This document shows positions 8,008 to 33,627 of a DNA stretch of 41,804 bases, piece by piece. Where the stretch lies: positions 1-41,804 of IMG/VR virus record IMGVR_UViG_3300024895_000001; one strand, written 5' to 3'. Below the pieces are notes generated by a model. That model saw only the letters and a list, made by a program, of their open reading frames with translations. It ran no database searches and was not told where the DNA came from. The number at the start of each line of letters is the position of its first letter. Within the stretch, counting starts at the first letter, position 1. A program made the position numbers and the translations under genes. Origin of the DNA: a virus.

Positions 8008-8027
8008 CGTCCATCGAAAGGTAAATC

Positions 8028-8669: not shown

Positions 8670-8672
8670 CCC

Positions 8673-9214: not shown

Positions 9215-9217
9215 ACC

Positions 9218-11527: not shown

Positions 11528-11528
11528 C

Positions 11529-20584: not shown

Positions 20585-21274
20585 TCATTGGCTTTGCTGA
20601 GTCACAGGATGGGTCGCAGGATTTATCCTGATTTCATTGGTGATTGATTCTTCCAGCGTCTTCATCATGTTTCGCGTAAACCCAACGGACATGGCCGCAA
20701 GAACCTTGTCGCCCCACTCGCCAATTGCCACATTCACACAGAAGCAAATTACCCGAAGATTGTCGAATCGATAGGGGCCGTTGGAATCGATCCGGTCGAT
20801 GCTGAGCTTAAATGGGTGTCTTGATGTCGTTCCGATCTCAAGTGGTATTCCAGTAAGGGCGCATACGCCGTTGCTGTGCAAAATTGCCTCTAGCATCTCC
20901 TGTTCCAGTAGGAAAAACTCAATATTACGTTCTCGCGCCGACCGCTTTAGATCGAGATACTTCTTTCGGATGGCACCCCGGGCTTGAAGTTGTTGGACGG
21001 TTTCGTTCCATGGCTGGCTGTGGTCAGCAAAAAGATTCTGGGCGGTTCTTTTTGCAACAGATGCCGAGTTATTTTCGATGATCGAATCCCTTAGTAGCCT
21101 GGCGGCATTCAGATTGTTCGATTTGACCGATTTACGAACGCGTTTCCCATCGATAACGAGATCGATAGTCAGGTTTCCGTTCCTGGATGCAATTCCGTCC
21201 TCAATCCGAATCCATCCTAGCGAAGTGGCATTACGTTCCTGTTTTTTCTGTTTTCGCATTTTCTTGTGCTCCAA
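20585..21274 (-). CDS. Hypothetical protein with C-terminal HNH/His-Me-finger-like (possibly degenerate) motif; low-GC cargo gene between int and attP
   Basis: The motif is ...CALTGIPLE...KLSIDRIDSNGPYRFDNLRVICFCVNVAIGEWG. The region is visibly more AT-rich than its flanks. An alternative start is at 21259. Confidence 0.45.
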   Translation of the reverse strand: MEHKKMRKQKKQERNATSLGWIRIEDGIASRNGNLTIDLVIDGKRVRKSVKSNNLNAARLLRDSIIENNSASVAKRTAQNLFADHSQPWNETVQQLQARGAIRKKYLDLKRSARERNIEFFLLEQEMLEAILHSNGVCALTGIPLEIGTTSRHPFKLSIDRIDSNGPYRFDNLRVICFCVNVAIGEWGDKVLAAMSVGFTRNMMKTLEESITNEIRINPATHPVTQQSQ

Positions 21275-22421
21275 ACATCGCGACAGCCTTGTTTCCGACG
21301 TCTGGTGTCGCTGATTTTATCCACCGCGCATATACCCGGGCCAGCATGCTCAGGTCGGCGTGGCCCATCTGGCTGGCGACCCATCCGAGGGGCTCGCCAG
21401 CGGTCAGCATCATTGAGGCGTAGGTGTGCCTGGTCTGGTATGGACGCCGGTACCGGGCGCCTGATTTCTTGATGGCGGTCTTCCATGGGCCCTGGCGAAT
21501 GGCCTCGTCGCCTTCCCACGGATTTCCGGTGCGTGGATCCCGGAAGATCACGCCGCCCTGCAGAAAGGTAATCTCCTTCTGACGCTTCAGTGCAGCCAGC
21601 GCTGGGGCCAGCAGCTTGACGTCGCGGACTCCCTTGCGGGTCTTGGTCGTCTCCGGTTCGTCCGCGAACTGCGTCTTGGCCTTGTTGATCCTGGCCTCTC
21701 CCCTTATCCAGTCGATATCATCCCAGGTCAGCGCGACCAGCTCCGAGGTGCGCAGGCCGGTCCAGAACAGGAACTCGAACATGTTCTTGTGCTGTGGCTC
21801 GTTCATCGCGGCCAGGATGGCTTCGCGTTCGATTGCTTCGAACGGGTCGACGTCGTCCTTGGTCTTGATGGTCTCGGCGTTTTCGTATTTCCAGCCGTAG
21901 AGCGGGTTGGTTTCGATCAGGTCGTCGTCGAGCGCATCCTGAAGCGCGGAGCGAAGAACGCTTTGCACGTTGGCCAGCCATTTGTTGCTGCATTCCTGCT
22001 TTTTGCACCAGTCGCGAACATGCACGCGGCGCAGCTCTGGAAGAAGGATGCGGCCAAGCTCCGTCTGGTTGATCATGGTGACGATCTTGTCGTAACCGGC
22101 CCAGGTGCTGGCCTTCAGTTGTTTCTGCTTCCCCTTGATCCAGCCTTCGAGATAGTCCTCGAGGAGCGTCCAGGCGCTTTGTGGGCGCTCGGCAAACTTG
22201 AAACGGTTCTTTGATTCCGGGAAGGTGACGGCGTAGTCGAAGGTATTGTGGGCGATCGCATCAAGGATCGCGGCCCGGTGCTGGGCGACCTTCTTTAGAT
22301 TTGCAGGGGTTGGGGCGAGCTTGAACGTTTCGCGGCACCGCTGGCCGCGATAGATGAAGTCGATCTCGATGCTTTTTTGGCTACGGGAGCGAACCCCGTC
22401 GAAAGTCCTTGTTCCACCCAT
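21231..22421 (-). CDS. int: Tyrosine integrase (lambda-type, with N-terminal arm-binding-like domain)
   Basis: Start ATG at 22421 (MGGTRTFDGV...IEIDFIYRGQRCRE). The catalytic region reads ...FWTGLRTSEL...RHTYASMMLTAGEPLGWVASQMGHADLSMLARVYARW (R..HxxR..Y pattern). The 505-aa ORF call is an upstream extension. Confidence 0.85.
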   Translation of the reverse strand: MGGTRTFDGVRSRSQKSIEIDFIYRGQRCRETFKLAPTPANLKKVAQHRAAILDAIAHNTFDYAVTFPESKNRFKFAERPQSAWTLLEDYLEGWIKGKQKQLKASTWAGYDKIVTMINQTELGRILLPELRRVHVRDWCKKQECSNKWLANVQSVLRSALQDALDDDLIETNPLYGWKYENAETIKTKDDVDPFEAIEREAILAAMNEPQHKNMFEFLFWTGLRTSELVALTWDDIDWIRGEARINKAKTQFADEPETTKTRKGVRDVKLLAPALAALKRQKEITFLQGGVIFRDPRTGNPWEGDEAIRQGPWKTAIKKSGARYRRPYQTRHTYASMMLTAGEPLGWVASQMGHADLSMLARVYARWIKSATPDVGNKAVAMFGAQENAKTEKTGT

Positions 22422-22579
22422 GCTTCGTATCCGTCCATGTCGATGACGACGTGCCGGTCCGGTGCTTTTCTGAATTCCCGGTCTTCCAGCCACACGCCGT
22501 CCCTTATCTTGGCACGCACGGCCTCTTCTGTGTAGCCCGTGAGCTCGCAGAATTTCGGGATGAGGACGTAGCGTGCCAT
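22295..22579 (-). CDS. xis: Excisionase-like DNA-binding protein
   Basis: MARYVLIPKFCELTGYTEEAVRAKIRDGVWLEDREFRKAPDRHVVIDMDGYEAWVEQG matches the Xis/DUF1233-like pattern. It lies directly upstream of int and overlaps it by about 127 nt. Confidence 0.7.
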   Translation of the reverse strand: MARYVLIPKFCELTGYTEEAVRAKIRDGVWLEDREFRKAPDRHVVIDMDGYEAWVEQGLSTGFAPVAKKASRSTSSIAASGAAKRSSSPQPLQI

Positions 22580-22582
22580 GGC

Positions 22583-22873
22583 TTATACCGCCTCCGGCAG
22601 GCTTTTGTCGTGGCGCGGTTTGTATTTGCGGATCTGGCCAGCATCGACCAGCGGCGTGGCGATATGCCAGAACTGGGCATTGGTCAGATTGAACTTGATC
22701 TGCATTTCCTTGGCCTCGACCTTGCGGGGCTTTTGGCTGCGCAACCACTCAAGGATCTCGGCGCGTTTGGCAATGACTTCAGGGCTGACATGTTTGGCTC
22801 TGGACTGGTCACGTTCGTTCTCGTGCCACCAGGTTGGCCGCTGGATCTGATCGATGGCAAGGGCTAGGCTCAT
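22583..22873 (-). CDS. Hypothetical protein
   Basis: 96-aa ORF, tightly packed in the operon. Confidence 0.5.
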   Translation of the reverse strand: MSLALAIDQIQRPTWWHENERDQSRAKHVSPEVIAKRAEILEWLRSQKPRKVEAKEMQIKFNLTNAQFWHIATPLVDAGQIRKYKPRHDKSLPEAV

Positions 22874-23391
22874 TGCTGGATGATCTCCATGAAGCGTTGG
22901 TAGAAGAGCAGCTCGGCGCGGTTGCTGTTGATGGCGATCAGCTTGGCGTCCATGGGGCGGACGCCGGTGAGGATCGGCCAGTCTGTGTCATCGTCAGGCA
23001 TCAAGTCGCGGCGCTCGGTGGCCAGCATGGTGCGGTCGGCGCTGGTGACCTGGTCGCTCTGTGATTCAGGAAGGCCGAAGCGGGTGCGGATCACGGCCTG
23101 CAGCTTGTCCTCGATGCGGCGATAGTCCGGCAACAGCTGCTTGAGTGGGCGCGGAATGTCCTTGATGTAGGCCTCGCTGGCGTCGTGCAGCAGTGCCTCA
23201 AGGGCAAACTGCTGATCGACGATCCTGCTGGCGACGACGCTGTGCTGGGCGACGGTGTAGTAGTACTTGGTCTGGCCGGCGAAGCGGGATTCCCGGGAGA
23301 GGCCCTTGATGATGTCCTCGATGCGGATCATGTCAGGCTGCGGGTCGATCAGGTCGATGTGGCGGCCTGAGTGGGTTAGTAGCCAGGTCAT
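22870..23391 (-). CDS. HD-domain phosphohydrolase
   Basis: ATG 23391 overlaps the methylase stop (ATGA). It has ...VAQHSVV...ALLHDASEAYIKDIP... (H...HD...D pattern). Confidence 0.65.
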   Translation of the reverse strand: MTWLLTHSGRHIDLIDPQPDMIRIEDIIKGLSRESRFAGQTKYYYTVAQHSVVASRIVDQQFALEALLHDASEAYIKDIPRPLKQLLPDYRRIEDKLQAVIRTRFGLPESQSDQVTSADRTMLATERRDLMPDDDTDWPILTGVRPMDAKLIAINSNRAELLFYQRFMEIIQQ

Positions 23392-25223
23392 GCTGCTCTC
23401 CGTGTGATAGACATTTCTGGAAGATTGGCGCGAACAAGTGCGGCGGCCAAAGGCGGGCAAACGCTGTTGCCGCACATGCGAACCTGCGCCGATTTGGTCA
23501 GGTTGATGCGCTGGCCGTTGTGATCGATGCCCCATTCCGTGATGTAGCTATCGGGGAAACCTTGGGCTTTGAAAAGCTCCTTCGGCGCCAGCATGCGCAG
23601 GCCTATGTCGGCGATCTGGTATTCCTCGCCGGCCACCGTGACGAGGCCGTAGCGGTCCTTGGTGGTGACGGTGTGAAGGGGTTCCTGCAGGTTCGGGTCT
23701 TGGTCGGTGCCGTAGTACTTGATCAAGAAGGCGCGGACCTCGGCGAAGTGGGTTCCTTGGGCGCTGACGGTATGAAGCGGCTCGCCGATTGGCTGGCCGT
23801 CTTGGCTGGTGCCGCGCAGCTTGACCAAGTTGCTGGTGACAATGCCGGCGGTCGCACCGTTGGCGGTGATGGTGTTGATCGGCTGTTCGATGTCACGGAT
23901 GCCGTGGCTGAATCGTTTGCCACCGTCTTGGCCTTCGCCGTGGCCCATGTGGATCAGGTTGGCGGTGACCAGGCTGTTGTGGTCGGTGCTGGTAACTGTG
24001 TGAAGCGGCTCGCCTTGCAGGCTGTGACCAACAACACCACCGTAGTGCTTCGCCATGAAAGCAGATACCAGCGCGTGTTTCTGGCTTCCGACAAGCGTTC
24101 CAAGCGGCTTTTCGATGTCCAGCGCCCTTGGCGCCTGGCCGTCGCGTTCGCCGTAGCCGGTTTGAACCAGGGTCGGCGCGATCAGCGCATGGTGGCCGCC
24201 CTTGGTCTGGGCGCAGATAGTGCGCAACGGCTCGTCAGCCGGCATGCTGCGCGGTGAGGATGCGTTGGCATGCTCAGTCAGAACTGGTGCGACCAAAGCC
24301 ATTTCGCCGCGGTGGGCAGCCGTGATTGTTGGAATGGGCTGCTCCATCGGATAGCGACGGTCGGCGCCCTGGTGTGTAAGCGGGACGATGAACGGCTCGG
24401 ATTCATCGACGACGTAGCGCATGATGCCCTTGGCAATCCGGCGCAACGTGGCCGGCGCAAGTTCGCGCTTGCGCTCAAAAATCGACGGACAAGGAATCGA
24501 CCAGTCGATGCACTCGGCAGCAGTGCGCCACGGCTGCATAACGACGCCATCCGGATTAAGGATGCGGTCTTTGCGGCCCTTGAAGCGCTTGTCAGCGGGG
24601 TCGTAGTGCGTTGCTTCCGGCCAGACAATCGGCTGACCATCTCGACGGGCGATCAGGAACAGGCGCTTGCGGATCGTCGGCGTACCGTAGTCGCAGGCGC
24701 GCAGCTCGCGGTGCTCGATCTGGTATCCATGGCGGCGCAGGGCGTTGCAGAAGGCATTGAACTCGCGGCCCTTGTTCTTCGGGCATGGCCGGGCCTTTCC
24801 ATCGCTATCAACGATCAACGGGCCCCAGGTGCGGAATTCTTCGACGTTCTCCAGCATGATGACGCGCGGCTTGGCGACGGCTGCCCATCGCAAAGCGACC
24901 CAAGCGAGGCCGCGAATCTTCTTCTCGACGGGCTTTCTGCCCTTGGCCTTGCTGAAATGCTTGCAGTCTGGGGAAAGCCAGACCAGACCTACGGGGCGCC
25001 CATGCGTGACTTCGCGCGGGTCGATTTCCCAGACGCTTTCGCAGTAGTGCTTCGTCTCTGGGTGGTTCGCCGTGTGCATGGCGACGGCTTCCGGATCGTG
25101 GTTGATGGCAATGTCGACGCGCCGGCCGAGCGCAAGCTCGATGCCGGTTGAGGCGCCACCGCCACCGGCAAAGTTGTCGATGATCAACTCGCCGTGAATG
25201 TCGAGATTTAGCTGCAGGGTCAT
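23388..25223 (-). CDS. DNA (cytosine-5)-methyltransferase with expanded, internally repeated target-recognition region
   Basis: Motif I is DNFAGGGGAS, motif IV SPDCKHFS, motif VI MLENVEEF, motif VIII TIRKRLFLIA and motif X GNSVCPPL. About 330 aa between motifs VIII and IX hold about 7 repeats of the [EQK]P[LI].T[ILV] module. Confidence 0.85.
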   Translation of the reverse strand: MTLQLNLDIHGELIIDNFAGGGGASTGIELALGRRVDIAINHDPEAVAMHTANHPETKHYCESVWEIDPREVTHGRPVGLVWLSPDCKHFSKAKGRKPVEKKIRGLAWVALRWAAVAKPRVIMLENVEEFRTWGPLIVDSDGKARPCPKNKGREFNAFCNALRRHGYQIEHRELRACDYGTPTIRKRLFLIARRDGQPIVWPEATHYDPADKRFKGRKDRILNPDGVVMQPWRTAAECIDWSIPCPSIFERKRELAPATLRRIAKGIMRYVVDESEPFIVPLTHQGADRRYPMEQPIPTITAAHRGEMALVAPVLTEHANASSPRSMPADEPLRTICAQTKGGHHALIAPTLVQTGYGERDGQAPRALDIEKPLGTLVGSQKHALVSAFMAKHYGGVVGHSLQGEPLHTVTSTDHNSLVTANLIHMGHGEGQDGGKRFSHGIRDIEQPINTITANGATAGIVTSNLVKLRGTSQDGQPIGEPLHTVSAQGTHFAEVRAFLIKYYGTDQDPNLQEPLHTVTTKDRYGLVTVAGEEYQIADIGLRMLAPKELFKAQGFPDSYITEWGIDHNGQRINLTKSAQVRMCGNSVCPPLAAALVRANLPEMSITRRAA

Positions 25224-26176
25224 ACTTCCACCTCTTCACCAAGGCTGCCGGCCGGGTAGAAGACGATGGCCGGGCCAGAAGTTTCAATTTCGGCCTTTTT
25301 TTCGGCCTGACCGTAGCTTTCCGTGTCGCCAAGCTCCGGCGACAGCGTGCCCATGATTTCGAATTCAATGGCCTGCTGGCGGGTGATGCGGAAGCCGGCG
25401 GCGTGTTTGTGGCCGCCACCGCCGAAGCGCTTGGCGATGGTTTCGACGTTGGCGCCGTCTGGTGCTGAGCGCAGGGAGAAGCGGCGGCCGTCTTCGTCGT
25501 CGTAGTAGGTGGCGGCGAACGGGTTGCCTTCGGCCAGCCTGGCACCAACGTCGCTGGCGAACATCCATGGGGCGTTGGCGGCCGGTATGTGGGTGCCGGC
25601 GATGTTGATCCAGCGGGTGGCGTTGTCGGCGATGGCGGCGACGTCGGCGCTGTGCTTGCGGATCAGGCTGCGGCCTTCGCGCTCGAGCTCGACCGGCGGC
25701 ATGGTCATCAGCTGATCCCAATGCTCGAAGGTCATCGGGTAGGAAAACACGGCAGCCATGATTTCCCGTGTCATGGGCAGCTTGAACTGCCACAGGTCGC
25801 GGTCCTGGATGTGATCGAACAGCAGCGGCTGCATTTCGCCAGGGAACAGGTGTTGCCAGGTGAGTGCGGCGCCGCATTTGGTGTTGTCGAAGATGGCGCG
25901 GGCTTTGGCCGGCAGGTCTTGCAGATCGGCCTGCGAGGTGTCGTGGTGGTCGATGATTAGCACGTCGTTGGCTTGTTCGATAAGCTGCAGCATGACGTCG
26001 CGTTTGTAGCTGAAGTCGACAATGATGACGTTGCGGCCGGTGACGTCGGGCGGGGCTTTGCCGTAGATTCCGGGGTGGAATTCGACGAGGCCGGCATGAA
26101 AGCGGCGAACGGCCCAGGCTGCGGCAAAGCCGTCGGTGCAGGCGTGGTGGTAGATGCAGAGCGGCAAGTGAGTCAT
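25220..26176 (-). CDS. DHH-family phosphoesterase (DHH + DHHA1-like, GGGH motif)
   Basis: The motifs are CIYHHACTDG..., ...IIDHHDT..., and ...FGGGGHKHAAGF. ATGA overlaps with both the RT stop and the methylase start. Confidence 0.7.
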   Translation of the reverse strand: MTHLPLCIYHHACTDGFAAAWAVRRFHAGLVEFHPGIYGKAPPDVTGRNVIIVDFSYKRDVMLQLIEQANDVLIIDHHDTSQADLQDLPAKARAIFDNTKCGAALTWQHLFPGEMQPLLFDHIQDRDLWQFKLPMTREIMAAVFSYPMTFEHWDQLMTMPPVELEREGRSLIRKHSADVAAIADNATRWINIAGTHIPAANAPWMFASDVGARLAEGNPFAATYYDDEDGRRFSLRSAPDGANVETIAKRFGGGGHKHAAGFRITRQQAIEFEIMGTLSPELGDTESYGQAEKKAEIETSGPAIVFYPAGSLGEEVEV

Positions 26177-27543
26177 GCTGATTTCCTATAGGTCTTGGAT
26201 AGGTCGGATTTGATGCTGTGGCCGCGCTGGCGCAGGGTGTTGGCGAGCAGGGCGCGGTCGTGGTGGCTGTGGCTGGCCTGGCGGAGCAGGCCGAAGTAGC
26301 TGTTGCCGGTGGCGAACAGGTCGGCGGCCGGCATTGCCCTGGTGCGGCCGATGGCGTCGTTGAAGGTGCGCCGGCGCAGGGTGCGGCGGTGGGGCTTGAT
26401 GACCTGGCCGACGAAGTCAATGCCACGGTCGATCGGCTGCAGGATGGTTTTCTTGGGGTTGATGCGGGCGGCCAGTTGGTCGGCAAGCAAGGTCTCGATC
26501 TTGGCCTTGGCGGCGTTGAGCCATTGGGGCGATTCGTGGAGCAGGACGAAGTCGTCGACGTAGCGGATGTAGTGCTTGGCGCGTAGTTCGTGTTTGACGA
26601 ACTGGTCGAGCACGTCGAGATACACGTTGGCGAAGAACTGGCTGCTCAGGTTGCCGATGGGCAGGCCTTTGTGGGCGGGCTGGTTGGTCAGGCGCTTGTG
26701 GGGTGGTACCAGATCCAGTTGGCGGGGGTCGCCGTGCAGTTCGTAGTTCTGGCGCGGGTCGTGGAAAAGGACGGCCTCGGTCAGTTGCAGCCACCAGTGC
26801 TCGGTGATGTGCCGGGCGAGCAGGCGCTGCAGGATGTTCTTGTCGATGCTGACGAAGAAGTTGGCGAGATCCAGCTTCAGGTAGAAGGCGGGCTTGGTCC
26901 AGTTCTGGGTGATGCTGCGCACCTTGGCTTCGAGCCGCTGGGCAGCGTAGAGGGTGCCGCGGCCGGGGATGCAGGCGCAACTGTCGGCGATGAAGCGGGT
27001 GTAGAAGCGCGGCGAGATATGGTTGTGCAGCAGGTGGTGCACGATGCGGTCGCGGAACTGGCCGGCCCAGACTTCGCGGGCCTTCGGTCGGGTGATGACG
27101 AAGCAGATGGAGCGGCCGGGTTGGTAGCTGCCGTCTTCGAGTTCGTCATGCAGTTCGCGCAGGTTGTGTTCCAGGTTGGCTTCGAAGGCCAGCGCACTGG
27201 CGCTGTTGCGCTTGGTGCGCCGGCAGTCGAAGTAGGCTTGTACCAGTTCGGTAAAGGTGAAATCAGCGGGTGCTTTCCAATCTGCGGACGGCACGAGCAC
27301 GGAGCTCGTTGTTCTTGTGGTTGTTGTTCTGGTTGCCGTTGTTGAAGTTCTGATACCAGGCGTAGCCGGAATCGGACCTGTCGTGCTTTCTACGTCGCCC
27401 GGCCGACTGTTCAGCGGGGAAACTGCGCCGGACCTTTCCTGCGTGCTGCAGGAGGTCTCCGGGGTGCGCATGTCGGTGGCCTCGTGAGCCAGCGGCACGA
27501 CCAGATTGAATATGCGCTCAGTCATGGCGGCCTTGACCTCCAT
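26173..27543 (-). CDS. Diversity-generating retroelement reverse transcriptase
   Basis: Its RT motifs include LKLDLANFF, the DGR-typical LPIGNLSSQFFANVYL, and YIRYVDDFVLL. It is preceded by Avd and TR. The most plausible start is 27525 (GGAGG upstream), and 27543 and 27471 are also in frame. Confidence 0.9.
   Translation of the reverse strand: MEVKAAMTERIFNLVVPLAHEATDMRTPETSCSTQERSGAVSPLNSRPGDVESTTGPIPATPGIRTSTTATRTTTTRTTSSVLVPSADWKAPADFTFTELVQAYFDCRRTKRNSASALAFEANLEHNLRELHDELEDGSYQPGRSICFVITRPKAREVWAGQFRDRIVHHLLHNHISPRFYTRFIADSCACIPGRGTLYAAQRLEAKVRSITQNWTKPAFYLKLDLANFFVSIDKNILQRLLARHITEHWWLQLTEAVLFHDPRQNYELHGDPRQLDLVPPHKRLTNQPAHKGLPIGNLSSQFFANVYLDVLDQFVKHELRAKHYIRYVDDFVLLHESPQWLNAAKAKIETLLADQLAARINPKKTILQPIDRGIDFVGQVIKPHRRTLRRRTFNDAIGRTRAMPAADLFATGNSYFGLLRQASHSHHDRALLANTLRQRGHSIKSDLSKTYRKSA
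27278..27377 (-). repeat. DGR template repeat (TR), ~100 bp, AAC-rich on the sense (minus) strand
   Basis: It aligns ungapped to three VRs, and every mismatch is at a + strand T, which is a sense-strand A. In the VR frame it encodes ...GYAWYQNFNNGNQNNNHKNNELRARAVRRL. Confidence 0.9.
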
Positions 27544-27892
27544 GAAGCGGGCGCGATGCGGACTTGCGCCACCCGTTGGCCTGCTTCCCGATGCTGGTGG
27601 TGAGTTCGACGGCGCGGGCGTAGCCGTCCTTGCTGATGAGGTGCTTGTCCATGGACAGGCGCAGCATCAGCTCGGCGACCTGCAGGCGCTCGACCAGTTC
27701 CAGCAGATGCGGTGCCTTGTCCTGGGCGACGTTGGCCCGGAAGATCAGCACCGTGATTTCGATGCACTCGGTGCTGATCTTGTCGCCGATAGATCGCTTG
27801 AAGTCTCGCTGCATGTTCTTGACGAGACTGGTGACGACATCGAGCAGGTCGTAGGCGACCTTGTAGATGGGAAGATGGGTATGGGTGGCCAT
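27518..27892 (-). CDS. avd: DGR accessory variability determinant (Avd; four-helix-bundle family)
   Basis: 124 aa. MATHTHLPIYKVAYDLLDVV...ITVLIFRAN...LLELVERLQVAELMLRLS... resembles Avd/23S-rRNA-IVS four-helix-bundle proteins. It lies between the target gene and TR/RT. Confidence 0.8.
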   Translation of the reverse strand: MATHTHLPIYKVAYDLLDVVTSLVKNMQRDFKRSIGDKISTECIEITVLIFRANVAQDKAPHLLELVERLQVAELMLRLSMDKHLISKDGYARAVELTTSIGKQANGWRKSASRPLHGGQGRHD

Positions 27893-27910
27893 GCTGATTA
27901 AATGATCGAA

Positions 27911-28378
27911 TTACTCAATGATCAATCTGCGGACGGCACGAGCACGGAGCTCGTTGCGCTCGTGGTAGTAGCGCTGGCGGCCGTTGCCGAAGTCCTGACA
28001 CCAGGCGTAGCCGGAATCGGACTCATTGGCTTCGCAGGACCAGTACCAACGGTCTTCGAACTGGTCTTTGAGGTTGGCGTAGAGCAGCGATTGTTCGCGG
28101 CGGGTGGGCAGGTTTCCGCCTTTGGCTTGTGCCCACTTCCATGCGTCTTCCCAGTTGATGTCGTCGGCCTGGCCGGGGAGAAGCACCAGGTGATAGCTGG
28201 GCTCGCCATCCTTGCCAACGATCAGGCCGGCGTAGTGTTCGCCGGGGTGCAAATGGATGGTGACTTCGGGGAAGTAGAACTCGGCGGCAAGCTGGTTGGC
28301 CTGGGCTTCGAAGGTGGCGATCTTGGCGGCCAGTGCATCGGCGTCGGCCTTGATCTGTTCAAGCGTGATGGTGGTCAT
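27911..28378 (-). CDS. DGR target protein 1 (DUF1566/Lcl-C-terminal, C-type-lectin-fold-like) with C-terminal VR1
   Basis: 155 aa with ...GGNLPTRREQSLLYANL...WYWSCEANESDSGYAWCQDFGNGRQRYYHERNELRARAVRRLIIE. VR ends 12 nt before the stop. Confidence 0.85.
   Translation of the reverse strand: MTTITLEQIKADADALAAKIATFEAQANQLAAEFYFPEVTIHLHPGEHYAGLIVGKDGEPSYHLVLLPGQADDINWEDAWKWAQAKGGNLPTRREQSLLYANLKDQFEDRWYWSCEANESDSGYAWCQDFGNGRQRYYHERNELRARAVRRLIIE
27923..28022 (-). repeat. DGR variable repeat VR1
   Basis: 100-bp ungapped match to TR with 13 mismatches, all at TR adenines (sense strand). Confidence 0.9.
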
Positions 28379-28402
28379 AGCGTCCTCGAAATGACTGAAT
28401 GA

Positions 28403-28762
28403 TTAAATGGGCAATCTGCGGACGGCACGAGCACGGAGCTCGTTGTCCTTGCGGCGGTAGAGCTGGTCGCCGTCGTTGAAGTACTGAAACCAGGCGTAGC
28501 CGGAAGCGGAATGGTGCTGCTCGTTGCTCCAGTACAAGTCTTTGTTGAACTGGTCGCGATGGTTGGCCCAGAGCATGGCCTGCTCGATGCGGTTGGGCAG
28601 ATCACCGCCGATGGATTTGGCCCAGTCGATCTGGGCTTGCCATTCGGCGTCGTCGTTGTCGCCAGGGAGCAGGATGAGGTGATAGACCTCGCCGGATGTG
28701 TCGCCAATGGCGCCGATGTAGGTTTCGCCTTCGGCAAGCGGGGGGGGTTGAAGTTGTTGCAT
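28403..28762 (-). CDS. DGR target protein 2 (DUF1566-like) with C-terminal VR2
   Basis: 119 aa with ...GGDLPNRIEQAMLWANH...LYWSNEQHHSASGYAWFQYFNDGDQLYRRKDNELRARAVRRLPI. Confidence 0.85.
   Translation of the reverse strand: MQQLQPPPLAEGETYIGAIGDTSGEVYHLILLPGDNDDAEWQAQIDWAKSIGGDLPNRIEQAMLWANHRDQFNKDLYWSNEQHHSASGYAWFQYFNDGDQLYRRKDNELRARAVRRLPI
28412..28510 (-). repeat. DGR variable repeat VR2
   Basis: About 99-bp ungapped match to TR with 12 mismatches, all at TR adenines. Confidence 0.9.
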
Positions 28763-28783
28763 GGGTGTCCTTTCCAGTTGGAA

Positions 28784-29764
28784 TTAATTGGGTTGAGCAG
28801 TCAGCTGGTCGAGCGTCCCGCCGTTGGTGATCCAGAATTCAACCCACTTGGGCTGCCGGCCTCGGCCGCTCCAGGTGAGTTCTCGGTTCTGCGGATGGAT
28901 ATATTTGGCGCCGATCATGTTGGCGAAGCGGGTGCTGTTATCCGGCTCCTGCTCTGGTGATGGCATGCCTTGTTCGGCGTTTTTCTCGGCTTGTTCCTTG
29001 AGTAGATCAAGGAATGCGAGGCGCTTGATGTCAAGATTCTCGGTCAGCACAAAGCTGATTCTGTCGTCCCAAGTGAGGGCGAGCTTGGTAGGTAGTTTTC
29101 CGCTGGCAAGGTCAGCGCGGACGCGCTCGGTTTCGATTGGGCAGCGCTTGTAGGAAACGGCGGATTTATCCTCGCCAGCGGATTGCAGTTCGCAGTCTCT
29201 ATCGATAGTGAATCCGGCTGGTGCTTCACCGCCGGCAAGCCAGTCGGCCATGGCTGAGGTCGGTGAAATAGTGCTATGGAGCGGCAGTAGCGGGAAATCG
29301 TCGAGCGAGTGGCGGAGTAGTTCGATAAGCTCGGCTGCTTGGCTGGCGCTGCCGTCGATGGCAAGCCATCCGTTATCTCGGTCGATCCAGGCAAACGTAT
29401 TGCGCCGCTTGGTAAAGGCGCGCGGCATCAGTTCTTCTGTCACGCGCTCTTTGAGTTCGCGGAGCTGCTTGCGGCCAGGTGCGTGGCCTTGTTCATCGGT
29501 CAGCTTGTCGGCCCTGGCGCTGACTTCGTCGTTGATCACCGAGGCGGGAAGCAGGCGCTGCTCAATGGTCAGGGCGATCAGCCACTGGCGATTCTGGGTG
29601 TAGGCCAGTGCGCCATCCTTGCGTGGTGATGTCCATCCCTTGCTGGTGGCTTGATGGGAGGCGCAATGGGCAAACATGGCGCGAGCCAGTTGTTCTTCAA
29701 GTTGCCCTGGCGTGATTTTCCAGTCGGATTTCAGGCGATAGACCTGGAGGTTTTTGAAGAACAT
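28784..29764 (-). CDS. rdgC: RdgC-like recombination-associated protein fused to a C-terminal H-NS-type DNA-binding domain
   Basis: The N-terminus MFFKNLQVYRL... and ...LLPASVI..., ...LMPRAFTKRR..FAWID..NGWL resemble RdgC. The C-terminus AKYIHPQNRELTWSGRGRQPKWVEFWI...GGTLDQL matches the H-NS/MvaT TWxGxGRxPxW motif. The start at 29764 shares one base with the upstream stop. Confidence 0.7.
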   Translation of the reverse strand: MFFKNLQVYRLKSDWKITPGQLEEQLARAMFAHCASHQATSKGWTSPRKDGALAYTQNRQWLIALTIEQRLLPASVINDEVSARADKLTDEQGHAPGRKQLRELKERVTEELMPRAFTKRRNTFAWIDRDNGWLAIDGSASQAAELIELLRHSLDDFPLLPLHSTISPTSAMADWLAGGEAPAGFTIDRDCELQSAGEDKSAVSYKRCPIETERVRADLASGKLPTKLALTWDDRISFVLTENLDIKRLAFLDLLKEQAEKNAEQGMPSPEQEPDNSTRFANMIGAKYIHPQNRELTWSGRGRQPKWVEFWITNGGTLDQLTAQPN

Positions 29765-30549
29765 CAGATAGCCTCTTTGAATTCTATGGTCGTGGTCTTT
29801 TTGCAGCGAGCGGTGCCGACCGGGATCAGCGCGAGAACATCGGCTCGACCTGCGGCCTTGGCGGCAGATTTGGCGGCTTCTACAGCCCGTTCCGGCTTGG
29901 CGCAAAGACGCGGCTTACGCTTTGGTACGCGGATGACGTAGCCGATGGCTACATCCTTGATGTCGACAGGCGGTTCGTCGGTCTCAGCGCTGGTTTTGTG
30001 CAGCGATTCAAGACGGTTGCGCAGCTGGTGATAGCCTTCGCAGCCGTAGGCCTGGGCCACGTCTTGCCAGCATTGCAGGGCGCTCTCTGCCAGGGCAAGC
30101 TGGTTTTTGTAGTCCTCAGCGGTCGCGAAGTGTTCGTCGCGCTGCATCTCTGCGTTGCGGAGTTGTTCGCGAAGTTCTACGGCGGCGTTGTGTCGATCTA
30201 CAGCAATTTCTACGGCGCGCCGTTCGATCGTTTCGGGTGCTTGGCGTTGAATCTGGCGGCGACCTGGCTCCTTCTTCTGCAGCGGATTGCGGCGCGATTC
30301 TGAGCGGTGTTCGGATACCCACTTCGGCCAGTCGGCGGCAACGACGGCAGACGAGAGCCGCCATTCGATGGTGTCTTGCTGGCCCGGGCGTTTGACCGTG
30401 CTGGTGACGACGAACCCGCTGGCGACTGCTGCGTTCATGGTGCCGCTCAGTTGCTTGTGCTCGATACCGGCGGCTTGGGAGAGTTCGGCAGAACGGATGC
30501 CCGGCCGCTTTTCAATGATGTTGAGGGCTTTCTGGGTTTTAGTTTCCAT
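29764..30549 (-). CDS. Hypothetical protein (N-terminal winged-helix-like, central coiled coil)
   Basis: 261-aa ORF with a good start context. No family was recognised. Confidence 0.55.
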   Translation of the reverse strand: METKTQKALNIIEKRPGIRSAELSQAAGIEHKQLSGTMNAAVASGFVVTSTVKRPGQQDTIEWRLSSAVVAADWPKWVSEHRSESRRNPLQKKEPGRRQIQRQAPETIERRAVEIAVDRHNAAVELREQLRNAEMQRDEHFATAEDYKNQLALAESALQCWQDVAQAYGCEGYHQLRNRLESLHKTSAETDEPPVDIKDVAIGYVIRVPKRKPRLCAKPERAVEAAKSAAKAAGRADVLALIPVGTARCKKTTTIEFKEAI

Positions 30550-30574
30550 GGTGGCGATCAGACGAAAAGGTTGA

Positions 30575-30826
30575 TCAGTACGAACGAGGTGCTGGGTCGG
30601 GAAGGCCGCGGTCGATCAGCGTCGTGCTCTGTGCATCAATCAGTCGCTTGTGCCTTGCATGAGCCTCCAATAGCTGCTTGCTAAGGTGGTTGATCTGGAT
30701 CTGGATCGCATCGCGCTCATCAAGCAGGCCTGATAGCGATAGCTGCAGATCAGTGATCATTGCCTCCTGTGATTTGATACGCAGGCCAAAGAAGACGCGG
30801 TAAATCCACTCGATCAGGCGGCGCAT
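30575..30826 (-). CDS. Hypothetical small protein
   Basis: ATG 30826 is preceded by GGAGG. 83 aa, coiled-coil-like. The longer 175-aa ORF call is Arg/Pro-rich and looks like a spurious extension. Confidence 0.5.
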   Translation of the reverse strand: MRRLIEWIYRVFFGLRIKSQEAMITDLQLSLSGLLDERDAIQIQINHLSKQLLEAHARHKRLIDAQSTTLIDRGLPDPAPRSY

Positions 30827-31014
30827 GGCATAGCCTCCAGGTAGGCTGTGGCTGGGGTCTTGATCTTGACGGCCAGCTTGACCCAGCCGGCAGGAACGAC
30901 AGGCGATACCACGGCGCGGCGACCGTTGGTGATGATGTGCCAGCCGCGGACCTTGGCGGCCTGGGCGATTTCTTCGAGCAGTGCGTCGTCGGGAACGATT
31001 TGGGCGATGATCAT
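30814..31014 (-). CDS. Hypothetical small protein
   Basis: ATG 31014 is preceded by GGGAGG. 66 aa (MIIAQIVPDDALLEEIAQAAKVRGW...). Confidence 0.5.
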   Translation of the reverse strand: MIIAQIVPDDALLEEIAQAAKVRGWHIITNGRRAVVSPVVPAGWVKLAVKIKTPATAYLEAMPCAA

Positions 31015-31217
31015 GATGCCTCCCTGGTTGAAATGGATTTGAAGGCCCGGTAGTTGGGTTGTTGTTCGGCCAGCCGCATGGATTCCTCCGGGCTGCTGGC
31101 AATGACGGTGGCGACTACCTTCCTGGCCGATTGATTGGCGTTCAGGCAGGATTTGCGGTGCATGGTCACTTCGTAGGGGCGTGGGGAGCATCTGGTTTTC
31201 ATGCTTGGCTCTGGCAT
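31011..31217 (-). CDS. Hypothetical small protein
   Basis: 68-aa ORF whose stop overlaps the next start (ATGA). The start is uncertain. Confidence 0.35.
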   Translation of the reverse strand: MPEPSMKTRCSPRPYEVTMHRKSCLNANQSARKVVATVIASSPEESMRLAEQQPNYRAFKSISTREAS

Positions 31218-31786
31218 GGCGCTGTGTTTGCCGCGGCCTCGGCGGCGACAATGCGGTCAAAGAGTGCGGCGGCTTCGATGGTGATCGGGTGCAGGACTGC
31301 ACGCTCAATGGCGCTCATGTCGTACGTGGTTATTTCAGGCGCTATCCTGTTTTTTGCCGCCCGATAGGCCATGGATTTCGCGATGGATTCCAGTGCCTCT
31401 GCCAGCTCTGTCTGCATGACCTCGGCCATTGGTTTTCTGAAATGCCCGCCGGTGCGAATGAGCGACAGAATGTAGTTGTCCGAGTAGTCGTGCTTCATCA
31501 CGGCCAGCTTCTGCACGGTAGTTTCCATGGGCAGCGTGGCGGCGAGCCGCCTTGCTTCTGGGAGCGCCTTGCGGATGTCGTCTTCCATGCGATTTTCTTC
31601 AGCCTTGGCTACATTGGCAGCCTGTATGGCTTCCCTGGCTTGTGCCTCGATGATCGTGGCGGCTTTGCTCAGGGCGAGGCGCTCTGCTTCATTGGAGATG
31701 GATTCGGCCAGTTTGCGGACTTGTGTAGCCGTCCGGCGAAGCGCCGATCCTTTGTCCTTGATGGACTGCGATTGGGTCTTGGTCAT
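31199..31786 (-). CDS. Hypothetical protein
   Basis: About 195 aa from MTKTQSQS... (the ORF maximum starts at 31813). Helical, with no family recognised. Confidence 0.5.
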   Translation of the reverse strand: MTKTQSQSIKDKGSALRRTATQVRKLAESISNEAERLALSKAATIIEAQAREAIQAANVAKAEENRMEDDIRKALPEARRLAATLPMETTVQKLAVMKHDYSDNYILSLIRTGGHFRKPMAEVMQTELAEALESIAKSMAYRAAKNRIAPEITTYDMSAIERAVLHPITIEAAALFDRIVAAEAAANTAPCQSQA

Positions 31787-31793
31787 GTTTCGC

Positions 31794-31910
31794 TCAGTGC
31801 TGGATCGGGGCAATTGCCGGGATGCTCATGGTCTTCTCGAAGCCCATTCCCATGAACGACAGGGCGGTGCGACGGTAGAAGGCGCGCTGCTGTTGTTCGG
31901 TGTGGGTCAT
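31794..31910 (-). CDS. Possible 38-aa ORF (MTHTEQQQRAFYRRTALSFMGMGFEKTMSIPAIAPIQH)
   Basis: ATG 31910 is preceded by GAGG within the conserved post-VR block. It is below the ORF-track cutoff. Confidence 0.3.
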   Translation of the reverse strand: MTHTEQQQRAFYRRTALSFMGMGFEKTMSIPAIAPIQH

Positions 31911-31931
31911 GTCAGCCTCGAAATGACTGAA

Positions 31932-32282
31932 TTACTGAATGATCAATCTGCGGACGGCACGAGCACGGAGCTCGCCGCGCTTGCGGGTGTCGTCCTGGTA
32001 GCCGTAGCTGAAGTGCTGATACCAGGCGTAGCCGGAAACGGACTCAGCGCTCGACCAGTACCAGGTCTGTTCGAACTCTTCCTTGGCAGTGGCGAATAGC
32101 AGGGCCTGCTCGACGCGGTTAGGCAAGCCGCCGCCTTGCTTGGCAGCCCAGTTCATGGACTTCTTCCAGGTGCCCTGGAAGCTGCCTGGCAGCAGGATGA
32201 TGTGGGTTGTGGTGCCGTCAGCAGAGACGATGCCGCCGATGTAGCGTTCGCCATCGGCGAGGGGGATGGTGGGGTGGGTCAT
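31932..32282 (-). CDS. DGR target protein 3 (DUF1566-like) with C-terminal VR3; first gene of the early-left operon
   Basis: 116 aa with ...GGGLPNRVEQALLFATA...WYWSSAESVSGYAWYQHFSYGYQDDTRKRGELRARAVRRLIIQ. A GGAG RBS lies 8 nt upstream of the ATG. Confidence 0.85.
   Translation of the reverse strand: MTHPTIPLADGERYIGGIVSADGTTTHIILLPGSFQGTWKKSMNWAAKQGGGLPNRVEQALLFATAKEEFEQTWYWSSAESVSGYAWYQHFSYGYQDDTRKRGELRARAVRRLIIQ
31944..32043 (-). repeat. DGR variable repeat VR3 (about 3.4 kb upstream of VR2 in the operon)
   Basis: 100-bp ungapped match to TR with 13 mismatches, all at TR adenines. Confidence 0.9.
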
Positions 32283-32312: not shown

Positions 32313-32341
32313 ATTATCACGAACGCGATAATTATTGTCAA
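32313..32341 (-). promoter_or_regulatory. Early-left (PL-like) sigma70 promoter: TTGACA - 17 nt - GATAAT on the minus strand
   Basis: -35 is at 32341..32336 and -10 at 32318..32313, read directly. It lies about 30 nt upstream of the first minus-strand gene. Confidence 0.7.
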
Positions 32342-32355
32342 CGCAAATGCGATAA
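32314..32355. promoter_or_regulatory. Two repressor operators at the PL-like promoter (TTATCAC-gaac-GCGATAA; TCAACGC-aaat-GCGATAA), 24-bp phase
   Basis: They share the inverted-repeat half-site (TTATCGC/GCGATAA) with the cI/cro intergenic region. One covers the spacer/-10 and the other the -35. Confidence 0.65.
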
Positions 32356-32404: not shown

Positions 32405-32432
32405 ACAAAAAAGCCCGCGCTCGGCGGGCTTC
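32405..32432 (-). terminator. Rho-independent terminator ending the repressor/TerB-BRCT transcription unit
   Basis: The minus strand reads agcccgcc-gagc-gcgggct followed by TTTTTT. It lies about 45 nt downstream of the 32474 stop. Confidence 0.7.
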
Positions 32433-33177: not shown

Positions 33178-33627
33178 TCAATTCGCAGCGTTTCCTTTAT
33201 TGATTCTGGGGAACTGATCGGCTAGATTCTGCGCGTGGGCGATGAGGCGATGCAGTCCGGCGTCATTGATATGCGAGGATACCTCTGCCAACTCGGCCAG
33301 TAACGGTGATGGAAAGCTGACAATCTCGGCGGGAGACGGCTCGGCGGCGGTGAGCTGGCGTGGATTCCGGGATGTCGCGATGCCATATTCGCGATCCGCC
33401 GGTGGAGCCGATATCGGCTCTTGCTTCCCCTTGCCGGTCTTCAGCCAGTATGCGTCGACGCCGAGCGCATGCGCTATTTCAATAAGCGACGATGGCATCT
33501 TTTGCCGTGCCCCTTTTTCGATTCCGTTAATTGTTGATTGTGCAACACCTGCTTTTTTGGCGAGCTGATCCTGTGTCAGCTCAAGCGCAGTGCGTAATCT
33601 GGTAACACGTTCGCCGGTGGTTTCCAT
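33178..33627 (-). CDS. Phage repressor (CI analogue): XRE-family HTH, no S24 peptidase domain
   Basis: RLRTALELTQDQLAKKAGVAQSTINGIEKG is an HTH. It is divergent from the cro-like gene across an operator-rich 72-bp region. At 149 aa the C-terminus is too short and dissimilar for a LexA-like protease. Confidence 0.75.
   Translation of the reverse strand: METTGERVTRLRTALELTQDQLAKKAGVAQSTINGIEKGARQKMPSSLIEIAHALGVDAYWLKTGKGKQEPISAPPADREYGIATSRNPRQLTAAEPSPAEIVSFPSPLLAELAEVSSHINDAGLHRLIAHAQNLADQFPRINKGNAAN

What the first reader, a model, noticed from the sequence alone, without database searches (positions are those of the whole stretch)
27911..28762. DGR targets are small DUF1566/CLec-like proteins with no obvious signal peptide, encoded in the early operon, not a tail fibre
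The paradigm for phage DGRs is diversification of the receptor-binding tail fibre. Here the tail genes (12430-17753) carry no VR. The diversified genes are instead 116-155-aa proteins that are little more than a DUF1566/C-type-lectin-like ligand-binding fold. None has a visible signal peptide, TM helix or lipobox. They are co-transcribed with early recombination and anti-restriction-type genes. This suggests a diversified intracellular binder set expressed early in infection. Possible roles are hypervariable inhibitors or decoys for host defence or host factors, or proteins packaged or secreted by an unrecognised route. That would be an unexplored use of a DGR.
Basis: inference. Interest (0 to 1): 0.85.

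Follow-up and report, generated by a model that had tools for sequence, protein, structure and literature searches.

The report
Early-operon phage DGR, tiny cytoplasmic lectin targets
A temperate phage uses a mutagenic retroelement to diversify three tiny signal-less lectin-fold proteins in its repressor-controlled early operon instead of a tail fibre; the module recurs in hundreds of phages and its function has never been tested.

Summary
The window is a complete circular 41.7-kb lambdoid siphophage genome. [quoted passage not shown] The TR matches three variable repeats (VRs), with mismatches only at TR adenines over the 99-nt core. The VRs end three maximal ORFs of 155, 119 and 116 aa. No other VR exists in the genome, so the tail genes are not targets.

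The three proteins are stand-alone Lcl_C/DUF1566 C-type-lectin folds; the top PDB hit for both models is the Legionella Lcl C-terminal domain. None has a hydrophobic segment, an N-terminal extension or a lipobox.

The third target is the first gene behind a terminator and an operator-flanked sigma-70 promoter, a pL-like site. This holds in three phage lineages, two of which repeat their own operators there.

The cassette small target(s)-Avd-TR-RT is conserved in 346 IMG/VR loci and 77 bacterial genomes, mostly Betaproteobacteria, and in cultured phages. It is active in nature.

The function is inferred, not shown. The best reading is a diversified cytoplasmic early binder set. An anti-defence role is plausible but untested. 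This is a new variant of a known kind.

The parts
27911..28378 (-). Target T1, 155 aa: N-terminal amphipathic helix (residues 6-27) plus Lcl_C/DUF1566 CLec domain. VR1 is at 27923-28021.
28403..28762 (-). Target T2, 119 aa: stand-alone CLec domain. VR2 is at 28412-28510. It starts 21 nt after the RdgC stop codon.
31932..32282 (-). Target T3, 116 aa: stand-alone CLec domain, remote from the cassette. VR3 is at 31944-32042. It is the first gene of the leftward early operon.
27518..27892 (-). Avd accessory protein, 124 aa
   Evidence: PF22296 bAvd; phrog_3206; NF033474, below cut-off
27374..27556 (-). RT-15 structured RNA motif (Rfam RF03018). It abuts the 5' end of the TR and overlaps the 3' end of avd.
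   Evidence: 177 bits, gathering score 82
27278..27376 (-). Template repeat (TR), 99-nt core with nine in-frame AAC codons
26173..27300 (-). DGR reverse transcriptase. The listed ORF runs up to 27543 across the TR, so the true start is probably a GTG in or near the TR 3' end. Motifs IGNLSSQ and YVDD are present.
32313..32355 (-). pL-like promoter TTGACA-17-GATAAT (11 of 12 matches), overlapped by two operator-like copies of TTATCGC-N4-GCGATAA (32314-32331 and 32338-32355)
32405..32432 (-). Intrinsic-terminator-like hairpin plus U-run. It ends the cI transcription unit just upstream of the pL-like promoter.
   Evidence: dG -16.6 kcal/mol, z -2.7
33178..33627 (-). CI-type repressor. The divergent Cro is at 33700-33930 (+), and a perfect operator lies at 33674-33691 overlapping the PR-like promoter.
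28784..29767 (-). RdgC fused to an H-NS C-terminal DNA-binding domain, immediately upstream of T2
21231..26176 (-). Downstream genes of the same strand block: DHH/DHHA1 phosphoesterase (25220-26176), C5 DNA methylase (23388-25223), dNMP phosphatase-like gene (22870-23400) and integrase (21231-about 22400)

Best explanation
This is a complete, active DGR of the RT-15/Avd class, built into the repressor-controlled leftward (pL-type) early operon of a lambdoid temperate siphophage. The host is probably a member of the Rhodocyclaceae.

On infection or induction, the operon is transcribed in this order: T3 first, then accessory and recombination genes, then T2, T1, Avd, the TR RNA and the RT. The RT copies the TR RNA with adenine-specific errors. 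The cDNA replaces the last 33 codons of T1, T2 and T3, randomising about 11-13 residues on the ligand-binding face of three stand-alone Lcl_C/DUF1566 C-type-lectin domains.

The proteins have no signal peptide, TM helix, lipobox or virion-docking domain, and they are made from an early promoter. They therefore most probably act inside the infected cell as a small set of hypervariable binders. T1 is possibly oligomerised through its N-terminal helix, like a collectin or Lcl neck. Candidate ligands are variable host or competitor proteins, for example defence components. Selection would act on the progeny variant at its next infection.

Shown: the DGR anatomy, the fold, the absence of export features, the promoter/operator placement, the conservation, and natural diversification. 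Inferred: cytoplasmic location, early timing of expression, oligomeric state, and the identity of the ligand.
For: DGR anatomy and A-only mismatches.

CLec/Lcl-CTD fold for T1 and T3.

No hydrophobic segment in the three window proteins. Among 190 homologous ORFs from 86 loci, only two reached the hydrophobicity threshold, and both are a conserved motif of the domain core (GGGF[FY]AG...IVAPK), read here as a beta strand rather than a TM segment.

T3 lies directly behind a terminator and a strong promoter that carries the same operator as the cI/cro region. The arrangement recurs in L008, with a different operator present three times at OR and twice upstream of the T3-like gene, and in L087.

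No minus-strand terminator-like site lies between T3 and the integrase, apart from one weak hit inside the DHH gene.

The order target(s)-Avd-RT is conserved in about 80 of 80 IMG/VR loci examined (346 found) and in 61 of 77 genome loci. The neighbours are RdgC, methylase, DHH, dNMPase, integrase and cI/Cro, never this phage's virion genes.

Carriers have unrelated virion types: Magia is a myophage (PMC7883833), this window and Cruim01 are siphophages (PMC11256456), and L004 and L087 have lambda GpA terminases. This argues against docking to a specific virion partner.

Thirteen proteins of one 90% cluster are essentially identical over residues 1-125 and differ at about 11 VR positions, so the element is active in nature.

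Targets stay intact where the RT is lost or reduced to fragments (L003, L043-L045, L095-L097), so they have a function of their own.

T1 and T2 are small and acidic (pI about 5).
Against: There is no expression, localisation, proteomic or interaction data for any member.

Promoter, operators and terminator are sequence predictions only.

Absence of a signal peptide was judged from hydropathy and composition, not with SignalP or DeepTMHMM, and non-classical release (for example at lysis) cannot be excluded.

All characterised DUF1566/CLec DGR targets (Mtd, LdtA, TvpA, Bacteroides pilus tips) and Lcl itself act outside the cell. The same fold occurs at the C-terminus of long phage proteins (phrog_4245, 583-position profile; a Peptidase_S74 tail-fibre-like BFVD hit).

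No conserved partner or effector gene and no PADLOC hit point to a defence-related role.

The T1 model is only moderately confident; one of five models was good.

A crude automated scan of remote target copies in other loci did not show promoter-proximity generally (3 of 14).
Confidence: 0.5

Rival explanations
1. The targets are virion-associated receptor-binding or adhesion modules after all. The small CLec proteins would be made early, persist, and dock non-covalently onto tail fibres, the tail tip or the capsid. T1 might dock through its N-terminal helix. The DGR would then switch tropism as in Bordetella phage BPP-1.
For: Every experimentally characterised phage DGR target is a receptor-binding protein (PMC5758913, PMC8144416). 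The fold is the one used in adhesins: Lcl-CTD, intimin and the Bdellovibrio fibre protein Bd2740. DUF1566-type VR domains occur at the C-terminus of long phage proteins and tail-fibre-like proteins. T1 has a conserved helix that could mediate attachment or trimerisation.
Against: The genes sit in the repressor-controlled early operon, 10-15 kb from the tail module and on the opposite strand. No domain other than the CLec is present in the maximal ORFs. The cassette is shared by myophages and siphophages with unrelated virion modules (PMC7883833). No virion gene co-varies with it.
Confidence: 0.2
2. The targets are prophage-borne defence or exclusion sensors. They would be expressed at a low level in the lysogen (leaky pL or internal promoters) as diversified cytoplasmic detectors or blockers of superinfecting phage proteins, protecting the lysogen. 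This would be analogous to the proposed CLec antigen sensors of cellular conflict systems.
For: The region between the immunity genes and the integrase is a classic site for exclusion and moron genes. Cytoplasmic DGR-diversified CLec sensors are proposed in bacteria (PMC10907252) and discussed generally (PMC10053308). The family is found only in (pro)phages and never on plasmids.
Against: T3 is under an operator-overlapped promoter and so should be repressed in the lysogen. The terminator isolates it from the cI transcript. T2 starts 21 nt after RdgC, leaving no room for its own promoter. No effector domain or partner is present, and there is no PADLOC match. The RT sits in the same repressed operon, so diversification would occur during lytic growth, not in the lysogen.
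Confidence: 0.12
3. The proteins act outside the cell after lysis. They would accumulate in the cytoplasm and be released with the burst. There they would bind variable surface structures, such as receptors on debris or neighbouring cells or matrix glycans. This could prevent progeny loss on debris, mask receptors against competitors, or aid retention in biofilm or flocs.
For: The lectin-type fold usually has extracellular ligands, and Lcl-CTD binds glycosaminoglycans (PMC11162425). No export signal is needed if release is by lysis. The hosts are floc- and biofilm-forming Betaproteobacteria.
Against: Immediate-early, promoter-proximal expression is not what is expected for a product needed only at lysis. 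A freely diffusing public good is weakly linked to the genotype that encodes the useful variant, so DGR-driven selection would be inefficient (inference).
Confidence: 0.08

Closest known systems
Bordetella phage BPP-1 DGR (mtd-avd-TR-brt)
   Same: It has the same retroelement logic. The gene order is target-avd-TR-RT, mutagenesis is adenine-specific with an AAC-rich TR, the VR covers the last ~33 codons of a CLec fold, and the 3' end of TR and VR is identical.
   Different: Mtd is a 381-aa trimeric tail-fibre tip protein with N-terminal virion-attachment domains, encoded with the tail genes (own knowledge; PMC5758913). Here there are three targets of 116-155 aa with no other domain. They lie in the early operon, and the CLec subtype differs (DUF1566/CLec2 type rather than the Mtd type).
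Burkholderia phage Magia DGR (genes 44-47 and 57), and the unannotated equivalents in Shewanella vB_Sb_QDWS, Pseudomonas LPPA56, Cruim01, Aurca01 and Medea1
   Same: It is the same module. The proteins are 54-56% identical to T1. The order is T2-like, T1-like, Avd, RT, plus a remote third target next to the immunity region, all lying between the repressor and the integrase. [quoted passage not shown]
   Different: Magia is a myophage of a different host. Its gene 46, the T1 homologue, was left as hypothetical. No paper discusses early-operon placement, lack of export signals, or function.
Wu et al. 2018 DGR target category 'd' (DUF1566/DUF823/Fib_succ_major, CLec2 VRs), exemplified by Legionella LdtA
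   Same: The VR lies in a DUF1566-type CLec domain. [quoted passage not shown]
   Different: LdtA is a surface-displayed lipoprotein with an export signal. The window proteins have none. The survey did not address where in phage genomes such short targets lie.
Cytoplasmic DGR-diversified CLec sensors of cellular conflict systems (STAND/NACHT-CLec; Dore et al. 2024)
   Same: These are predicted intracellular DGR targets whose CLec domain is thought to bind proteins of an antagonist (PMC10907252).
   Different: Those are large multidomain cellular proteins with NTPase and effector or adaptor domains. The window proteins are phage-encoded, single-domain and early-expressed, so they could only act by binding.
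Legionella Lcl C-terminal domain (PDB 8q4e)
   Same: It is the closest solved structure for both T1 and T3 (TMq 0.49 and 0.67, 22-24% identity) and the only sequence-profile hit in the PDB. Like T1, Lcl combines an N-terminal amphipathic helix with a DUF1566 head, and it is trimeric (PMC11162425).
   Different: Lcl is secreted by the type II system, has a collagen-like stalk, binds host glycosaminoglycans and is not DGR-diversified.

Membership tests
Diversity-generating retroelement (DGR) | TR/VR pair whose differences fall at TR adenines | tested here: met
   There are three VRs. Over the 99-nt core the mismatches number 13, 12 and 13, all at TR adenines.
Diversity-generating retroelement (DGR) | DGR-type reverse transcriptase adjacent to the TR | tested here: met
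   RVT_1 hit at E 9e-16. The IGNLSSQ and YVDD motifs are visible in the translation, and the ORF starts in or next to the TR.
Diversity-generating retroelement (DGR) | Accessory protein (Avd) and associated RNA element | tested here: met
   bAvd scores 44.5 bits against a cut-off of 40. PHROG 'Avd protein of DGR' hits at E 3e-30. RT-15 RNA scores 177 bits against 82.
Diversity-generating retroelement (DGR) | VR at the 3' end of a target ORF, in frame with AAC codons, within a CLec fold | tested here: met
   The VR covers residues 120-152 of 155, 85-117 of 119 and 81-113 of 116. Nine AAC codons are in frame. The fold is confirmed.
Diversity-generating retroelement (DGR) | Ongoing diversification in natural populations | tested here: met
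   This was shown for homologues, not for this genome itself. Thirteen cluster members are near-identical outside the VR and hypervariable inside it. Across related loci, 126 targets have TR matches.
Lcl_C / DUF1566 (PF07603) | Pfam model match at or above the gathering score | tested here: not met
   The scores are 27.1, 27.0 and 21.8 bits against a cut-off of 34.9, with E-values of 5e-6 to 2e-4. The database's precomputed table does list PF07603 for the identical protein P0001.
Lcl_C / DUF1566 (PF07603) | Lcl-CTD-like C-type-lectin fold | tested here: met
   8q4e is the top PDB hit for both models. The family profile hits 8q4e at E 8e-4.
Mtd-type virion receptor-binding DGR target | N-terminal domains that attach the CLec head to the tail or virion | tested here: not met
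   The maximal ORFs contain only the CLec domain, plus a helix of about 25 aa in T1.
Mtd-type virion receptor-binding DGR target | Gene located in the late/tail morphogenesis module | tested here: not met
   The tail module is at about 8000-17750 on the plus strand. The targets are at 27911-32282 on the minus strand, in the early operon.
Mtd-type virion receptor-binding DGR target | Physical presence in virions and control of host range | not testable with these tools
   No proteomic data were found for any carrier phage.
LdtA-type surface-displayed DGR lipoprotein | Signal peptide or lipobox (Sec or Tat) | tested here: not met
   No basic or hydrophobic N-region is present. T2 and T3 have no Cys. 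The maximum 19-aa Kyte-Doolittle mean is below 1.0. SignalP was not available.
Cellular cytoplasmic DGR sensors (STAND/NACHT-CLec) | NTPase and effector or adaptor domains fused to the CLec domain | tested here: not met
   The proteins are single-domain.
Phage anti-defence proteins (functional class, no sequence definition) | Early, promoter-proximal expression; small size; measurable inhibition of a defence system | tested here: inconclusive
   Promoter-proximal position and small size are met. Inhibitory activity cannot be tested here, and there is no similarity to known anti-defence families.

The most novel reading that the evidence does not exclude
Temperate phages of Proteobacteria use a DGR as a counter-immunity diversifier. 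This would be an immediate-early, cytoplasmic library of antibody-like lectin-fold inhibitors. The library would let a phage population pre-adapt to the variable defence or host-factor repertoire of the strains it meets. It would be the viral mirror image of the DGR-diversified antigen sensors proposed for bacteria.
Probability: 0.3. Interest if true: 0.9.

Novelty: new variant of a known kind. Interest (0 to 1): 0.62.

Why it matters
Phage DGRs are understood almost entirely through tail-fibre tropism switching. This case shows a widespread module, with 346 viral contigs, 77 bacterial species genomes and at least eight cultured phages. In it the diversified proteins are minimal, signal-less lectin domains placed in the repressor-controlled early operon, one of them as the first gene transcribed. 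If they act inside the cell, targeted hypermutation would become a tool of the intracellular phage-host or phage-phage arms race. These would also be naturally evolved, roughly 13-kDa hypervariable binder scaffolds that fold in the cytoplasm. The question is directly testable, because carriers infect tractable hosts: Pseudomonas aeruginosa, P. syringae, Burkholderia cenocepacia and Shewanella baltica.

Tried and rejected
- **Nucleotide relatives.** Megablast of the DGR region and of the structural half against 50,697 phage records gave no match. There is no close sequenced relative, so comparisons had to be made at protein level.
- **Plasmids.** A tblastn search of T1 against 72,556 plasmids gave no match. 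A link to plasmid leading-region anti-defence islands is therefore rejected.
- **Defence and naming libraries.** PADLOC and NCBIfam gave nothing informative for the targets or for the unknown operon genes.
- **Automated scan of remote targets.** A scan for promoter and terminator upstream of remote target copies in 14 other loci was inconclusive (3 of 14). The gene starts were only approximated. I relied instead on manual inspection of three lineages (window, L008, L087).
- **Magia gene 57.** Its upstream 60 nt shows no obvious promoter.
- **Literature.** Nine searches found no study of function, localisation or virion content for these targets. The papers on Medea1, Cruim01 and vB_E192a do not mention the DGR at all.
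- **T3 as part of the lysogenic cI transcript.** I considered this and rejected it, because a terminator and an operator-overlapped promoter intervene.
- **The listed 456-aa RT ORF as real throughout.** I considered this and rejected it. Its first ~90 codons run across the RT-15 RNA and the TR in another frame.
Full report
**What the window is.** The 41,804-nt window has an exact 121-nt overlap between its two ends. It is therefore a circularly closed or terminally redundant phage genome of 41,683 bp.
- The plus strand carries terminase and portal (38606-41580) and, across the junction, head protease and major capsid.
- It then carries connectors, major tail protein, tape measure, a 1523-aa J-type central fibre (12427-16998), endolysin and spanin. 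This is a lambda-like siphovirus.
- The minus strand from about 33600 down to 20585 carries a CI-type repressor, then a long same-strand gene block that ends with an integrase and an HNH endonuclease.
- Cro and CII are divergent on the plus strand.
- The closest protein relatives are in Dechloromonas, Azonexus and other Rhodocyclaceae.

**The observation.** A direct-repeat search found four copies of a ~100-138-nt repeat.
- Aligned on the minus strand, one copy (27278-27376, between avd and the RT) is A-rich with nine AAC codons.
- The other three copies end the ORFs 27911-28378 (T1, 155 aa), 28403-28762 (T2, 119 aa) and 31932-32282 (T3, 116 aa).
- Over the 99-nt core, the differences from the first copy number 13, 12 and 13, and all fall at adenines of that copy.
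- The last 30 nt are identical in all four copies.
- Both conserved blocks occur exactly four times in the genome, against about 0 expected. The tail genes therefore carry no VR.
- Avd (27518-27892), the RT (RVT_1, IGNLSSQ and YVDD motifs) and an Rfam RT-15 RNA (27374-27556, 177 bits) that abuts the TR complete a canonical DGR.

**What the targets are.** Pfam Lcl_C (formerly DUF1566) hits all three proteins significantly, but below the curated cut-off.
- A profile of the T2/T3 family finds the Legionella Lcl C-terminal domain as the only meaningful PDB sequence hit.
- AlphaFold2 models give that same domain (8q4e) as the best structural match. T3 has pLDDT 94.5. T1 has 79.7, with only one of five models confident.
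- The next structural matches are intimin, the Bdellovibrio fibre protein Bd2740 and animal C-type lectins.
- T2 and T3 are nothing but this domain.
- T1 adds a conserved N-terminal amphipathic helix (residues 6-27) with a 3-4 hydrophobic spacing. This recalls the trimerising neck of collectins and the N-helix of trimeric Lcl (PMC11162425). That resemblance is an analogy, not a result.
- The ORFs are maximal, so no upstream extension exists.
- No 19-residue window exceeds a Kyte-Doolittle mean of 1.0. The N-termini are neutral or acidic. T2 and T3 have no cysteine.
- Among 190 homologous ORFs from 86 loci, only two reached the hydrophobicity threshold. Both are a conserved motif of the domain core (GGGF[FY]AG...IVAPK), read here as a beta strand rather than a TM segment.
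- SignalP and TMHMM were not available, so 'no export signal' rests on these simpler tests.

**Where the targets sit.** This is the most informative part.
- Between cI (33627-33178) and cro (33700) lies a PR-like promoter overlapped by a perfect palindrome, TTATCGC-N4-GCGATAA.
- Downstream of cI comes one more gene (32474-33121, phrog_3989, with a BRCT-like C-terminus).
- A hairpin plus U-run follows (32432-32405, dG -16.6 kcal/mol).
- Next comes the best sigma-70-like site of the region, TTGACA-17-GATAAT, at 32341-32313. It is overlapped by two further copies of the same operator.
- An RBS and the T3 start codon follow.
- T3 is thus the first gene of a repressor-controlled leftward operon, the position that N holds in lambda.
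- From T3 to the integrase every gene is on the same strand with short gaps. T2 starts 21 nt after the RdgC-H-NS gene.
- The consensus scan finds no minus-strand terminator-like site except a weak one inside the DHH gene.
- The neighbours are RdgC fused to an H-NS DNA-binding domain, a DHH/DHHA1 phosphoesterase, a C5 DNA methylase and a dNMP-phosphatase-like protein. These are typical early accessory functions.

**Is this a peculiarity of one genome?** It is not.
- T1 has 1,238 detectable relatives of nearly constant length, 153-160 aa.
- IMG/VR holds 346 loci, and 77 species-representative genomes hold it. Nearly all of those are Betaproteobacteria: Paraburkholderia, Cupriavidus, Janthinobacterium, Dechloromonas, Gallionella and others. 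No plasmid carries it.
- In essentially every locus long enough to judge, the order is T2-type, T1-type, Avd, RT, often with one or two remote extra targets upstream. In some loci the T2-type is a ~200-aa larger version.
- Recognisable neighbours are RdgC, methylase, DHH, dNMPase, integrase (4-6 kb downstream) and cI/Cro (3-6 kb upstream). This phage's virion proteins are never among them.
- In 126 target genes from about 60 loci, the 3' end matches the local TR with mostly A-site differences. The figure of 72% is a lower bound, because the crude window includes the flanks.
- Cultured carriers exist: Burkholderia phage Magia, Shewanella vB_Sb_QDWS, Pseudomonas aeruginosa LPPA56, and P. syringae Cruim01, Aurca01 and Medea1.
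- Magia is described as a myophage (PMC7883833). The window and Cruim01 are siphophages, and L004 and L087 have lambda-type GpA terminases. The cassette therefore travels independently of the virion module.
- The promoter-proximal position of the remote target recurs in two further lineages. In L008 a different palindrome (TAACCATNGTTRC) occurs three times between repressor and cro and twice directly upstream of the T3-like gene, just after a terminator. In L087 the order is terminator, inverted-repeat-flanked promoter, T3-like gene.

**Is the element active?**
- Thirteen members of one 90%-identity protein cluster, from independent assemblies, are essentially identical over residues 1-125. 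They differ from one another at about eleven VR positions.
- This is the signature of ongoing mutagenic retrohoming.
- Conversely, several prophages have lost the RT or keep only fragments of it, yet retain intact target ORFs (L003, L043-L045, L049, L095-L097). The targets therefore have a function of their own.

**Mechanism.**
- The DGR part follows established knowledge (BPP-1 paradigm; PMC5758913). The TR RNA, here preceded by the RT-15 structure, is copied by the RT with Avd, adenines are misread, and the cDNA replaces the VRs.
- What is new is the placement. RT, Avd, TR and all three targets belong to an operon that should be silent in the lysogen and switched on at infection or induction.
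- Variants would therefore arise during lytic replication and be tested at the next infection.
- A stand-alone binding domain with no effector can only act by binding, that is by blocking, sequestering or bridging.
- I therefore consider a set of cytoplasmic, early-made hypervariable binders the best-supported reading (about 0.5). Host defence components or other strain-variable host or competitor proteins are the most sensible ligands (about 0.3 for counter-defence specifically).
- Virion association remains a serious rival (about 0.2), because every characterised relative of this fold acts extracellularly.
- A lysogen-protective sensor role (about 0.12) and a post-lysis extracellular role (about 0.08) are weaker, for the reasons given under the rivals.

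**Comparison with what is known.**
- The element is a bona fide DGR; all defining features tested were met.
- The targets belong structurally to the Lcl_C/DUF1566 CLec group. This corresponds to Wu et al.'s category 'd', where 'about half' of targets are short DUF1566-only proteins (PMC5758913).
- Roux et al. classify viral targets as tail or structural versus 'unknown', and note lower turnover for non-structural targets (PMC8144416).
- Predicted cytoplasmic DGR targets exist in cellular conflict systems (PMC10907252).
- In nine searches I found no work that recognises this conserved early-operon, signal-less, single-domain target module of temperate phages, or that tests its function.
- It is thus a new variant of a known kind, not a new kind of element. 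This window is one member of a family already present, unremarked, in public phage genomes.

**Caveats.**
- All regulatory elements are predictions.
- Localisation is inferred from sequence.
- The T1 model is of moderate confidence.
- Context statistics used similarity to this window's proteins only, so unrelated structural genes near other cassettes would have been missed within the 6-10-kb flanks.
- The generality of the promoter-proximal remote target rests on three hand-checked lineages.

Noticed in passing
window 1-121 and 41684-41804: The two ends of the window share an exact 121-nt direct overlap. The head-protease ORF reads across the junction. The window is therefore a circular or terminally redundant complete phage genome of 41,683 bp, not an integrated prophage.
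   Followed up: yes
window 28784-29767 (-): An RdgC domain (326 bits) is fused to an H-NS C-terminal DNA-binding domain. The gene lies immediately upstream of T2. The fusion is unusual. From my own recollection, phage-encoded H-NS has been discussed for EBPR phages.
   Followed up: no
window 32474-33121 (-): A 215-aa protein (phrog_3989) has a BRCT-like C-terminus, with a weak LigA BRCT match. It sits between cI and the terminator, so it is probably co-transcribed with the repressor in the lysogen. Different genes occupy the same slot in L008 (a zinc-ribbon/TM protein) and L087.
   Followed up: partly
window 27880-27925, 28370-28415, 31890-31945 (-): A conserved motif follows each VR a few bases after the stop codon but is absent after the TR. 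It reads TAATTCAGTCATTTCGAGG after VR2 and VR3, with the variant TAATTCGATCATTT after VR1. It may be the cis element for target recognition, or a copied ribosome-binding region. Downstream of T3 it is followed by a 38-aa ORF whose start mimics the T1 start.
   Followed up: partly
window 3287-4687 and 4690-6201 (+): Two large ORFs (466 and 503 aa) lie between the major capsid and head-tail connector genes. Neither has any PHROG match.
   Followed up: no
window 25220-26176 (-): A DHH/DHHA1 phosphoesterase (phrog_4771, E 8e-97) overlaps the RT stop codon. DHH, C5 methylase and dNMP-phosphatase genes recur downstream of the RT in several related loci, for example L025 and L092.
   Followed up: partly
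L003 (Dechloromonas sp. TW-R-39-2 prophage); L043-L045, L049, L095-L097: In these related prophages the RT is absent or reduced to fragments while the T2/T1 target ORFs remain intact. Avd is retained in L003, truncated in L043-L044 and not detected in the others.
   Followed up: partly
L003 5592-6209: A 205-aa remote target variant carries an N-terminal Walker-A-like motif (GPQAIGKT) ahead of the CLec domain. It is the only target seen with an extra putative nucleotide-binding segment.
   Followed up: no
L167 (Pseudomonas phage LPPA56), L006 (Cruim01), and Medea1/Aurca01: These cultured Pseudomonas phages carry the same early-region DGR (target(s)-Avd-RT upstream of the integrase). In GenBank the genes are annotated only as hypothetical proteins or 'retron-type' RT. 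The associated papers do not mention a DGR.
   Followed up: partly
L088 8001-8357: A T3-like gene (72% identical) lies in the early region of a phage-like contig, with no Avd or RT within the 8 kb up to the integrase. It is a non-DGR copy of the target family.
   Followed up: no
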